Assembly: GCF_009914755.1 (NCBI RefSeq)
Contig: NC_060938.1
Length of the DNA: 64,000 nt
Strand: one strand, 5' to 3'
DNA from: the human T2T-CHM13v2.0 reference genome, Homo sapiens
Of this stretch, positions 41,070 through 41,949 are shown piece by piece. A program made the translations under genes and the position numbers. The stretch's first letter is position 1; each line of letters starts with the position of its first letter. Below the pieces are notes generated by a model that searched no databases, had not been told where the DNA came from, and saw nothing but the letters and a program-made list of their open reading frames with translations.

Positions 41070-41930
41070 CGACAGTGGAGTTGGAGCCGCCCCGGGCGGG
41101 ATTAAGCCGGGTGGAAGCAAGTCCAGGAGACGCCCGCCCCTCCCCCGCGCCACAGGACTCGCCAGCCCCGCCACGCCCTGACCCCTCGTCTCTCCTCCCC
41201 TCCCCTCCTCCTCTTTTCTCCTCTCTTGCCCTCCCCCATCCCCTCCCTCCTCTCCCCTCCCTGCCCCTGCCCGGACAGTCCTGGTACGCCGTTCCCTGCG
41301 CTCCCAGGCCCCTTCCCCTTCCTCCTTCCCCTCCCCTTCCTCCCTCTCCTCCCCTCCCCGCCGCGTCCCGGACACTGCGGGCTGGTCCCGCGCCCCGCCA
41401 GGGCTGCCGGGGTGTGCTGCTGGGGAGCGTGACGTGGGCAGGACCACGCTGGACACGCAGTTCGCGTGCGGCCGCTCCCCGAGCAGTGCGCGGCGTGGGC
41501 GGAGGAGCGGCTCCGCGAGGAGATCGAGGCAAACGCGGCGCCCGCGCTGCTGGAAATCGTGGACGCGGCGGACGCCGAGCACCTGGTCACGCTCCAGGAC
41601 CTGGACATCCGCCACGGCGACGGCTTCGCGGTGCTCCGGGGCGTGTGCAGCGAGGCCTCGTTCCCGGCCGTGAGGCCGCTGCGCGAGCGCCTGCGCGGGC
41701 TGTGGGAACCCGGGGCCGTCCTGCTGGTGCTGGTGGGCACCCAGGCCGACCGGGACTCCGAGCGCCAGGTGCTGATGGCGCGGGCCCGCGAGGGGCCCTG
41801 CCCGTTCCCGGGGGTCACGGCCAAGATCCAGCGGAGGATGGACCAGGTGTTCACGCTGGCGGTGCGCGAGACGGAGGCCCTGATCCCGCCCGAGGTGCCT
41901 CCCCGCCAATGCCCAGCACACGAGGCTGTC
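41070..41930. promoter_or_regulatory. CpG island with polypyrimidine/G-rich tract (41180-41360)
   Basis: Dense CpG, CCCGCCCC boxes, C/T-rich stretch upstream of the Rap-like frame. Confidence 0.85.
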
Positions 41931-41949
41931 GGAAAGGTTCATTGGCTAA
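41399..41949 (+). pseudogene. RAP2CP1: Intronless Rap/Ras-family small GTPase pseudogene (RAP2-related, Gm266-like)
   Basis: Spread over three frames: CRGVLLGSV (41405-41431), frameshift, [14 protein letters not shown] (41434-41475), frameshift, [64 protein letters not shown], frameshift, [13 protein letters not shown] (TAA 41947-41949). Degenerate G1, G3, G4, G5 boxes, no ATG, no CAAX. Symbol inferred from locus recollection. Confidence 0.88.

What the first reader, a model, noticed from the sequence alone, without database searches (positions are those of the whole stretch)
41399..41949. Rap-like pseudogene looks like a lost functional retrogene rather than a dead-on-arrival RAP2C copy
Seen: two 1-bp deletions (~41432, ~41477) and a third shift (~41895) break a GTPase whose repaired sequence has G1 GSVxVG(K/R)T, an atypical effector region (EQC..EE), DxxxAEH in place of DTAGTEQ, and a non-CAAX C-terminus NAQ..SERFIG*. 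The CDS is GC- and CpG-rich. From memory, mouse Gm266 (between Tnfaip2 and Eif5) has the same features and ends ..SERFIG. Inference: a unitary pseudogene of a divergent, non-prenylated Rap-family GTPase that is intact in other mammals, adjacent to the putative Sec6-family losses.
Basis: partly seen in the sequence, partly recalled or inferred. Interest (0 to 1): 0.7.

Follow-up and report, generated by a model that had tools for sequence, protein, structure and literature searches.

The report
Lost human Rap-like switch gene
This stretch of human chromosome 14, unlabelled in RefSeq, is the broken remnant of a small signalling-switch (GTPase) gene that is still intact in seals, whales, bats, rodents and elephants (likely mouse Gm266) and is predicted to be stuck 'on' and to lack the usual membrane anchor, so it likely marks a real gene loss in our lineage rather than a dead copy of RAP2C.

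Summary
Confirmed and extended. Window 41373-41949 (+) is a broken, intronless copy of a 200-aa GTPase that is intact in 12 named placental species (Laurasiatheria, rodents, Afrotheria). The human copy is 59-66% identical to these but 31-32% to RAP2A/B/C; a clade with RAP2C is rejected (p-AU 3e-43). Published mouse Gm266 qPCR primers translate to family motifs, linking it to Gm266, a Notch-responsive mouse transcript. The genome holds one more copy, truncated, 72 kb downstream: that is RAP2CP1, so its name misleads. Both copies share most damage, and the shared amino-acid changes run 24 A/T-to-G/C against 3 G/C-to-A/T, the signature of GC-biased gene conversion. Intact orthologs keep the nucleotide-binding residues but carry V/A12, A/S13, V59, A61, a rewritten effector loop and no CAAX: predicted GTP-loaded and non-prenylated, working like NKIRAS/DIRAS though descended from RAP2. 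Not tested: synteny, dN/dS, primate timing (no other mammal genome on hand). The Sec6-loss aside found no support.

The parts
41373..41949 (+). Broken coding sequence of the Rap2-derived, CAAX-less GTPase (ortholog of the 200-aa placental protein, likely mouse Gm266); continuous, no intron
41373..41375 (+). Position of the lost start codon (reads CAC; CCC in the second copy)
41400..41407 (+).
41430..41433 (+). Frameshift 2 inside the P-loop (G1); shared with RAP2CP1. A TGA at 41430-41432 closes the N-terminal frame in this copy only
41473..41477 (+). Frameshift 3 just before switch I; shared with RAP2CP1
41478..41897 (+). Longest in-frame remnant (140 codons), Pfam Ras PF00071 E 5e-11
41780..41790 (+). 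12-bp in-frame deletion in helix 4; shared with RAP2CP1
41895..41907 (+). Frameshift 4 with a small deletion in the linker before the C-terminal motif; exact place depends on the relative used
41908..41949 (+). Retained family C-terminus ending SERFIG-stop, no cysteine, no CAAX; present only in this copy
41334..41895 (+). 562-bp unit duplicated at window-equivalent 113172-113733 (C14:97515218-97515733 for the searched part), the locus RefSeq calls RAP2CP1; 93.4% identical
40901..42200 (.). CpG island that holds the remnant
40415..41067 (.). About 650-bp interspersed repeat, LTR-like by size and CA end (family not named), about 300 bp upstream of the lost start; absent upstream of RAP2CP1

Best explanation
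The locus is the disabled human copy of a small GTPase gene that is intact across placental mammals (likely mouse Gm266), likely born as an intronless copy of RAP2A or RAP2C, whose protein is predicted to bind but poorly hydrolyse GTP and to lack prenylation, and which likely died in primates tens of millions of years ago under GC-biased gene conversion before a 562-bp piece was duplicated to give RAP2CP1. Steps. SHOWN: the human sequence belongs to this family and not to RAP2C; it cannot encode the protein (no ATG, four frameshifts, P-loop broken); no intact copy was found in the genome; the second copy shares the lesions; shared changes are strongly A/T-to-G/C. INFERRED: retroposition as origin; orthology by position; timing; gBGC as the force. 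PREDICTED for the intact protein: Ras fold with K16, T17, F28, D57, G60, K117, D119 kept (nucleotide binding), V/A12, A/S13, V59, A61 (slow hydrolysis, so mostly GTP-bound and controlled by expression, which fits Notch-dependent transcription in mouse pre-T cells), C32, S/A35, L39, F40 (Rap effectors likely lost or changed), and a conserved, disordered-tail motif ending ERFIG that would serve as a docking or localisation signal in place of CAAX.
For: Identity 59-66% to four family members tested against 31-32% to human RAP2A/B/C. Both human copies nest in the family clade at 100/100 in two trees; RAP2C grouping rejected, delta lnL 122.75, p-AU 3.5e-43. Full-length intact proteins named from 12 species: Phoca, Physeter, Mesoplodon, Hipposideros, Rousettus, Manis, Sorex, Jaculus, Perognathus, Loxodonta, Echinops, Elephantulus, 74-97% identical to the seal protein where aligned. 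Genome search with the seal protein: 34 matches, only the two chr14 copies are of this family, best intact one RAP2B at 46%; DNA search gives 2 matches. Mouse Gm266 primers (PMC4889922 suppl. table 4) translate to KADLD and, with one base missing, PFL/EIT, about 94 nt apart in rodent-type members; KADLDA occurs in 22 of 237 proteins held, all of this family, and in 0 of 8 human reference GTPases. Family nests inside vertebrate RAP2 (97/99); at 15 positions where RAP2A/B/C differ the family matches A+C at 3, C at 1, B at 1, none at 10; RAP2A and RAP2C coding regions are split by an intron, RAP2B's and this one's are not. Shared branch 0.43-0.44 against 0.11 and 0.14-0.15 after the split. Shared replacements: 24 weak-to-strong, 3 strong-to-weak, 3 S-S, 1 W-W in 143 conserved columns, p 8e-7 given codon make-up; 12 from A and 12 from T, 11 of 24 transversions. 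Model of the seal protein: pLDDT 82.6, best match RAP2A 1kao, rmsd 1.3, residues 180-200 disordered. 0 cysteines in the last 25 residues of 25 of 25 members checked.
Against: Synteny with any other mammal, dN/dS and primate states could not be computed: only the human genome and ortholog proteins, no ortholog DNA, were on hand. The Gm266 link rests on two 18-nt primers, one of which fits only with a base missing and ends in a codon start that differs from the rodent-type proteins held. The parent (RAP2A/C versus intronless RAP2B) rests on 5 informative sites; no poly-A tail or target-site repeat was seen, so a DNA-level copy of RAP2B is not excluded. The 5' half of the two copies is more alike (290 of 300) than the 3' half (232 of 259; Fisher p 0.001), so gene conversion may have copied the three 5' frameshifts between copies. 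After the split the bias is not evident (window copy 2 W-S against 4 S-W; RAP2CP1 5 against 4). The bias count uses ancestral amino acids from other mammals and minimal changes, and drops 5 codons where the copies differ from each other and 1 ambiguous one. No biochemical data on any member were found.
Confidence: 0.87

Rival explanations
1. Dead-on-arrival processed pseudogene of RAP2C (the reading implied by the name RAP2CP1).
For: Intronless; nearest solved structure and nearest intact human genes are RAP2; the second copy is annotated as a RAP2C pseudogene.
Against: 31% identity to RAP2C against 59-66% to the mammal family; AU test rejects; family-specific N-terminus and C-terminus retained; GC3 0.94 against 0.48 for RAP2C.
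Confidence: 0.01
2. The window copy is a displaced or secondary duplicate, and the ancestral position is RAP2CP1 (or a third, deleted site); the loss is real but this is not the original locus.
For: RAP2CP1 sits in a wider CpG island upstream (CpG-rich from about 112250), while an LTR-like repeat lies 300 bp upstream of the window copy; only 562 bp are clearly shared.
Against: Only the window copy keeps the C-terminus and stop. Translated ortholog flanks gave only low-complexity noise against either copy, so neither flank could be assigned.
Confidence: 0.2
3. The intact mammal protein is not an active GTP-loaded switch but a pseudo-GTPase scaffold (nucleotide-free or GDP-locked, or a decoy for Rap GEFs).
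For: T35 is S or A (A in 4 of 13), Y32C, N116T and A59V; by established Ras knowledge T35A and N116 changes weaken Mg/gamma-phosphate sensing and nucleotide affinity.
Against: K16, T17, F28, D57, G60, D119 are invariant and K117 is kept in 13 of 14; TKxD is, from recall, tolerated in Rho-family GTPases; the fold superposes on RAP2A.
Confidence: 0.25
4. The A/T-to-G/C excess reflects something other than GC-biased gene conversion: protection of an unmethylated CpG island plus selection on a regulatory element, or an artefact of inferring ancestors from protein.
For: Both copies keep CpG o/e near 1 while four neighbouring pseudogenes have 0.26-0.46; no bias after the split.
Against: Protection from CpG decay lowers strong-to-weak changes but does not by itself give 24 weak-to-strong replacements against 3; A and T contribute equally, arguing against strand-specific editing; the locus is 3.7 Mb from the chromosome end (contig length), where such conversion is, from recall, strongest.
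Confidence: 0.2

Closest known systems
RAP2A/RAP2B/RAP2C
   Same: Closest characterised relatives: family nests in vertebrate RAP2; intact members 41-45% identical; same fold, best match 1kao.
   Different: Stem of 1.3 changes per column; G12, G13, Y32, T35, Y40, A59, T61, Q63, N116 all replaced; 9-residue N-terminal extension; no CAAX or any C-terminal cysteine.
Mouse Gm266 (predicted gene; Notch/RBPJ target in pre-T cells)
   Same: Its published qPCR primers encode motifs specific to this family. Transcript falls on gamma-secretase inhibition and has an RBPJ-bound enhancer at +11 kb (PMC4889922, PMC7144913, PMC11109962; passages read).
   Different: None of the passages read describes the protein or its human state; position next to Tnfaip2/Eif5 is recalled, not tested.
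RAP2CP1 (RefSeq pseudogene, window-equivalent 113252-113984)
   Same: 93.4% identical over 562 bp; shares the lost start, three frameshifts and the 12-bp deletion.
   Different: Lacks the C-terminus; is annotated and named after RAP2C, while the fuller window copy has no row in the RefSeq table supplied.
Atypical RAS-family members NKIRAS1/2 and DIRAS1/2
   Same: Works-like analogues: NKIRAS lacks CAAX and is mostly GTP-bound; DIRAS1/2 hydrolyse slowly (PMC8526694, passages); a CaaX-less group is recognised (PMC13142924, passages).
   Different: Separate descent (from RAP2; 28-30% to DIRAS1; NKIRAS not compared here); DIRAS keep CAAX.
Human unitary pseudogenes (Zhang et al. 2010, PMC2864566)
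   Same: Disabled in human, intact in other mammals, no working copy in the genome.
   Different: Intronless, and that survey set aside intronless and predicted mouse genes; has a duplicated remnant beside it.

Membership tests
Unitary pseudogene (lost gene) | Disabling lesions in the coding sequence | tested here: met
   No ATG, four frameshifts, 12-bp deletion
Unitary pseudogene (lost gene) | No functional counterpart in the same genome | tested here: met
   2 DNA matches, both broken; 34 protein matches, best intact one RAP2B at 46%; RAP2CP1's 304-codon open frame skips the P-loop and has no Met before residue region G5
Unitary pseudogene (lost gene) | Intact, conserved ortholog in other species | tested here: met
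   12 named placental species with full-length proteins; tree. Annotation-level proteins; dN/dS not computed
Unitary pseudogene (lost gene) | Syntenic position with the intact ortholog | not testable with these tools
   No other mammal genome held; mouse order Tnfaip2-Gm266-Eif5 is recalled
Unitary pseudogene (lost gene) | Unprocessed gene structure (Zhang 2010 definition) | tested here: inconclusive
   Coding region is continuous; it is a decayed single-coding-exon gene, UTR introns unknown
Processed pseudogene of RAP2C | Descends from, and is closest to, RAP2C | tested here: not met
   31% against 59-66%; p-AU 3.5e-43
Processed pseudogene of RAP2C | Poly-A tail, target-site repeats, parent UTR | tested here: not met
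   None seen after the stop; 42330-43300 matches only itself in the genome
Retrogene of RAP2A/C | Lacks the parent's coding introns | tested here: met
   RAP2A and RAP2C exons split; remnant continuous across both sites
Retrogene of RAP2A/C | Parent is an intron-bearing paralog rather than intronless RAP2B | tested here: inconclusive
   4 sites favour A and/or C, 1 favours B, 10 uninformative; tree leaves it open
RAP2 subfamily (intact ortholog) | Phylogenetic origin inside vertebrate RAP2 and Ras G-domain fold | tested here: met
   97/99 support; TM 0.95 to 1kao; long branch caveat
RAP2 subfamily (intact ortholog) | Gly12, Thr61 and Rap effector loop (Y32, T35, Y40) | tested here: not met
   V/A12 in 13 of 13, A61 in 14 of 14, C32 in 13 of 13, S/A35 in 13 of 13, F40 in 14 of 14
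RAP2 subfamily (intact ortholog) | C-terminal CAAX and palmitoylated cysteines | tested here: not met
   0 Cys in last 25 residues of 25 of 25 members
CAAX-less, GTP-loaded atypical RAS (works like NKIRAS) | No CAAX; hydrolysis residues replaced; binding residues kept | tested here: met
CAAX-less, GTP-loaded atypical RAS (works like NKIRAS) | Measured GTP-bound state and slow hydrolysis | not testable with these tools
   Needs purified protein
GC-biased gene conversion hotspot | Excess of weak-to-strong fixations, both strands, including harmful replacements | tested here: met
   24 against 3, p 8e-7; 12 from A, 12 from T
GC-biased gene conversion hotspot | Same bias at neutral flanks, confined to a branch; skew in allele frequencies | not testable with these tools
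   Needs primate alignments and variant data

The most novel reading that the evidence does not exclude
Placental mammals have a fourth, uncharacterised RAP2-derived GTPase, a natural G12V/A, CAAX-less, Notch-induced switch with its own C-terminal docking motif, and primates lost it because a recombination hotspot drove GC-biased replacements through the coding sequence until it failed: a long-conserved gene killed by biased gene conversion, still unannotated at its main human locus and mislabelled as a RAP2C pseudogene at the other.
Probability: 0.3. Interest if true: 0.75.

Novelty: new member of a known kind. Interest (0 to 1): 0.55.

Why it matters
It adds a signalling gene to the list of human-lineage losses, in a family counted as complete (36 human RAS-family members per PMC13142924), and corrects the reading of RAP2CP1. 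Mouse Gm266 is used as a standard Notch read-out in pre-T-cell work, so a Notch target of the mouse model would have no human protein. The intact protein is a conserved natural G12-variant GTPase without a lipid anchor that nobody appears to have assayed in the papers searched. The decay pattern offers a testable case of biased gene conversion eroding a gene, if primate genomes show the biased changes came before the frameshifts.

Tried and rejected
RAP2C retrocopy: rejected. A large segmental duplication holding both copies: not seen; self-comparison of 214 kb gives only the 562-bp unit. Assigning ancestral flanks by matching translated ortholog UTR pieces: only low-complexity noise. A parent 3' UTR downstream: none. 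Non-placental members: none named in three word-index searches (the last two scored about 8000 candidates each) and none among the 142 new proteins of the best 150 of the profile search, where 139 are nearer to RAP1/RAP2/DIRAS, 1 is a family member and 2 are distant GTPases at 30-37%; clusters at 50% identity could hide one. No named primate protein either. ESM Atlas gave only generic Ras clusters. First structure job with 9 sequences failed (pLDDT 37); repeated with 84. Sec6-family remnants in the window: none (Pfam PF06046 genome search, 14 matches, chr14 ones all in TNFAIP2/EXOC3L4; local tblastn). Literature: 'Gm266' 16 papers, listing seen for all, passages read in 5 (a sixth gave no hit in the part held); 'RAP2CP1' 2 papers, passages of 1, a gene list; 'RAP2D' with GTPase 0; Rap2/gene-loss and retrogene searches gave nothing relevant; 'RP11-736N17' 4 papers, listing only. 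Term searches found no Gm266/RAP2CP1 in the main text of Zhang 2010, Ciomborowska-type orphan retrogene paper PMC3548309, PMC7555810 text and supplement, or supplements of Mudge 2019 (10 files; 1 unreadable), Sisu 2020 (8 files; 1 unreadable) and Sharma 2018 (3 files). These tables may list the locus by ID or coordinates only; Zhang 2010 supplements, GENCODE, HGNC and TOGA/Zoonomia tables were not seen and may already record it.

Full report
Observation. The three-frame translation shows pieces of a Ras-type G domain spread over three frames. The in-frame part 41478-41897 matches Pfam Ras and, among solved structures, RAP2A best. The score is 487 against at most 7 for 20 shuffles and 206-211 for RAP2A/B/C. 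The first three shifts each lose one base, so the N-terminal piece and the main body lie in one frame, but the P-loop between them is scrambled and no ATG precedes it.

What it is a copy of. The first search returned 11 proteins, 9 of them members of one mammalian family annotated only as 'Rap-2a/2b/2c-like' or unnamed, and 2 translations of the human-type broken copies. Two profile searches extended the family to 12 named species with full-length proteins in Laurasiatheria, rodents and Afrotheria, plus partial models from pig, dog, tree shrew, lemming, ground squirrel, kangaroo rat and hyena. Aligned full-length members are 74-97% identical to the seal protein. No named primate, marsupial or non-mammal member appeared; the exhaustive profile search showed only ordinary RAP1/RAP2-type proteins below the family. 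The human read-through is 59-66% identical to four members tested and 31-32% to RAP2A/B/C; both trees put it inside the family at 100/100 and the AU test rejects a clade with RAP2C. Its sister is an unnamed record, P0008, at moderate support (83/84 and 91/90). The family as a whole sits inside vertebrate RAP2 on a long stem (97/99; 1.29 changes per column), so a burst of change was followed by conservation.

Link to Gm266. No mouse sequence was labelled in the searches. The qPCR primers printed for mouse Gm266 (PMC4889922, supplement part read) translate to KADLD and, allowing one missing base, PFL then EIT; these motifs lie about 94 nt apart in rodent-type members, and KADLDA is found only in family members among 237 proteins held. 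Passages of three papers show Gm266 as a Notch target with an RBPJ-bound enhancer in mouse pre-T cells; two more list it among regulated genes in fat and hippocampus. So the mouse gene is transcribed and regulated; its protein is not described in what I read.

Two human copies. The genome holds exactly two DNA matches and no intact family member. The second lies 72 kb downstream where RefSeq places RAP2CP1. The shared unit is 562 bp at 93.4%; RAP2CP1 ends after the G domain, the window copy keeps the family C-terminus. Lost start, three frameshifts and the 12-bp deletion are shared, and the common branch (0.43-0.44) is three to four times the private ones, so most decay came before the copies parted. 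The 5' half is more alike than the 3' half, which allows later conversion between copies; the shared deletion and eleven shared replacements lie in the less alike half. With a recalled neutral rate of 1-2 per 10^9 per site and year, 6.6% divergence would put the split at roughly 15-35 million years, and the loss earlier; this is an estimate only. Which copy holds the ancestral promoter is open: an LTR-like repeat sits 300 bp upstream of the window copy, and ortholog flanks could not be matched.

How it decayed. An old pseudogene usually loses CpG; four neighbours have CpG o/e 0.26-0.46, these two copies 0.97 and 1.02 with GC3 0.94 and 0.98. Of the shared amino-acid replacements in 143 conserved columns, 24 are A/T to G/C and 3 the reverse (p 8e-7), split evenly between A and T and including 11 transversions, which fits GC-biased gene conversion and not strand-specific editing. 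Differences between the copies fall 9, 21 and 2 on codon positions 1, 2 and 3 (27 non-synonymous codons, 4 synonymous): no trace of protein constraint, and third positions are nearly saturated with G/C. After the split the direction is balanced (7 against 8). The locus is 3.7 Mb from the chromosome end. Whether the bias killed the gene or only acted on its corpse cannot be ordered without primate genomes.

How the intact protein likely works. The seal protein models as a complete Ras fold (pLDDT 82.6; RAP2A 1kao, rmsd 1.3) with a disordered tail. Residues that bind nucleotide and Mg (K16, T17, F28, D57, G60, K117, D119, the TAK of G5) are kept; those that permit hydrolysis are not (V/A12, A/S13, V59, A61), nor the Rap effector surface (C32, S/A35, L39, F40), and N116 is T. 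By established Ras-family knowledge, a non-glycine at 12 blocks efficient hydrolysis, so the likeliest state is GTP-bound, with output set by expression, as for NKIRAS and DIRAS. There is no cysteine in the tail of any of 25 members; the invariant-like W-P-x-E-R-F/Y-I-G end, conserved inside a disordered region, would be a docking motif. A nucleotide-poor scaffold or GEF decoy is the main rival. All of this paragraph beyond the residues and the fold is prediction.

Origin. The coding region has no intron where RAP2A and RAP2C have theirs, and 4 of 5 informative sites side with A/C rather than the intronless RAP2B, so retroposition is likely but thinly supported; no poly-A or parent UTR survives.

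What is known. The locus has no row in the RefSeq table supplied. Ten paper searches and the supplements listed under Tried and rejected found no description of this loss; Zhang 2010 excluded intronless and predicted genes by design. GENCODE, HGNC and TOGA tables were not available and could already hold it.

Verdict. A real, previously functional gene lost in the human lineage: a new member of a known kind, with two added points of interest, the atypical chemistry of the intact protein and the strongly GC-biased decay.

Noticed in passing
window 22652-24965 and 52845-55140: Inverted local duplication (75-95% identity in pieces) of the CpG island at the 5' end of LINC00605; further old local repeats pair 20933-21628 with window-equivalent 74067-74768 and 24122-24469 with 111949-112304, just upstream of RAP2CP1. 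No protein family recognised by eye in their long frames.
   Followed up: partly
window 1-64000 and 80 kb downstream: No Sec6/EXOC3-like remnant found by Pfam genome search or by tblastn with TNFAIP2 and EXOC3L4 exons; heavily decayed exons could be missed.
   Followed up: partly
L005:1204-2118 (RAP2CP1): Three 1-nt losses restore the frame, leaving a 304-codon stop-free frame through RAP2CP1; it has no Met until near the end of the G domain and the P-loop is out of frame. RAP2CP1 appears in a TCGA expression-based gene list.
   Followed up: partly
window 40415-41067: About 650-bp LTR-like repeat with hundreds of candidates genome-wide at 82-87% identity; could help date promoter disruption.
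   Followed up: no
P0026 (Phyllostomus discolor): Annotated as low quality, with many changes at otherwise invariant positions and a damaged N-terminus; may be an independent decay of the same gene in a bat.
   Followed up: no
window about 54219: A CGTGGGAA RBPJ-type motif 12.8 kb downstream of the lost start, in the duplicated CpG island; the mouse enhancer is at +11 kb. Six such motifs lie within 20 kb, so this may be chance.
   Followed up: no
P0226, P0227 (hagfish, lamprey RAP2-like): 49-52% identical to the family, slightly more than human RAP2s, but not grouped with it in the tree; likely shared GC-rich codon make-up.
   Followed up: partly
window 41016-41942, minus strand: 308-codon ATG frame antisense to the remnant; most likely a by-product of the GC-rich codon pattern.
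   Followed up: no
P0001, P0002: Public protein sets hold translations of both broken human-type copies (9 and 24 member sequences), with small differences from this assembly in the Alu-derived tail and one residue; not evidence of a protein.
   Followed up: no
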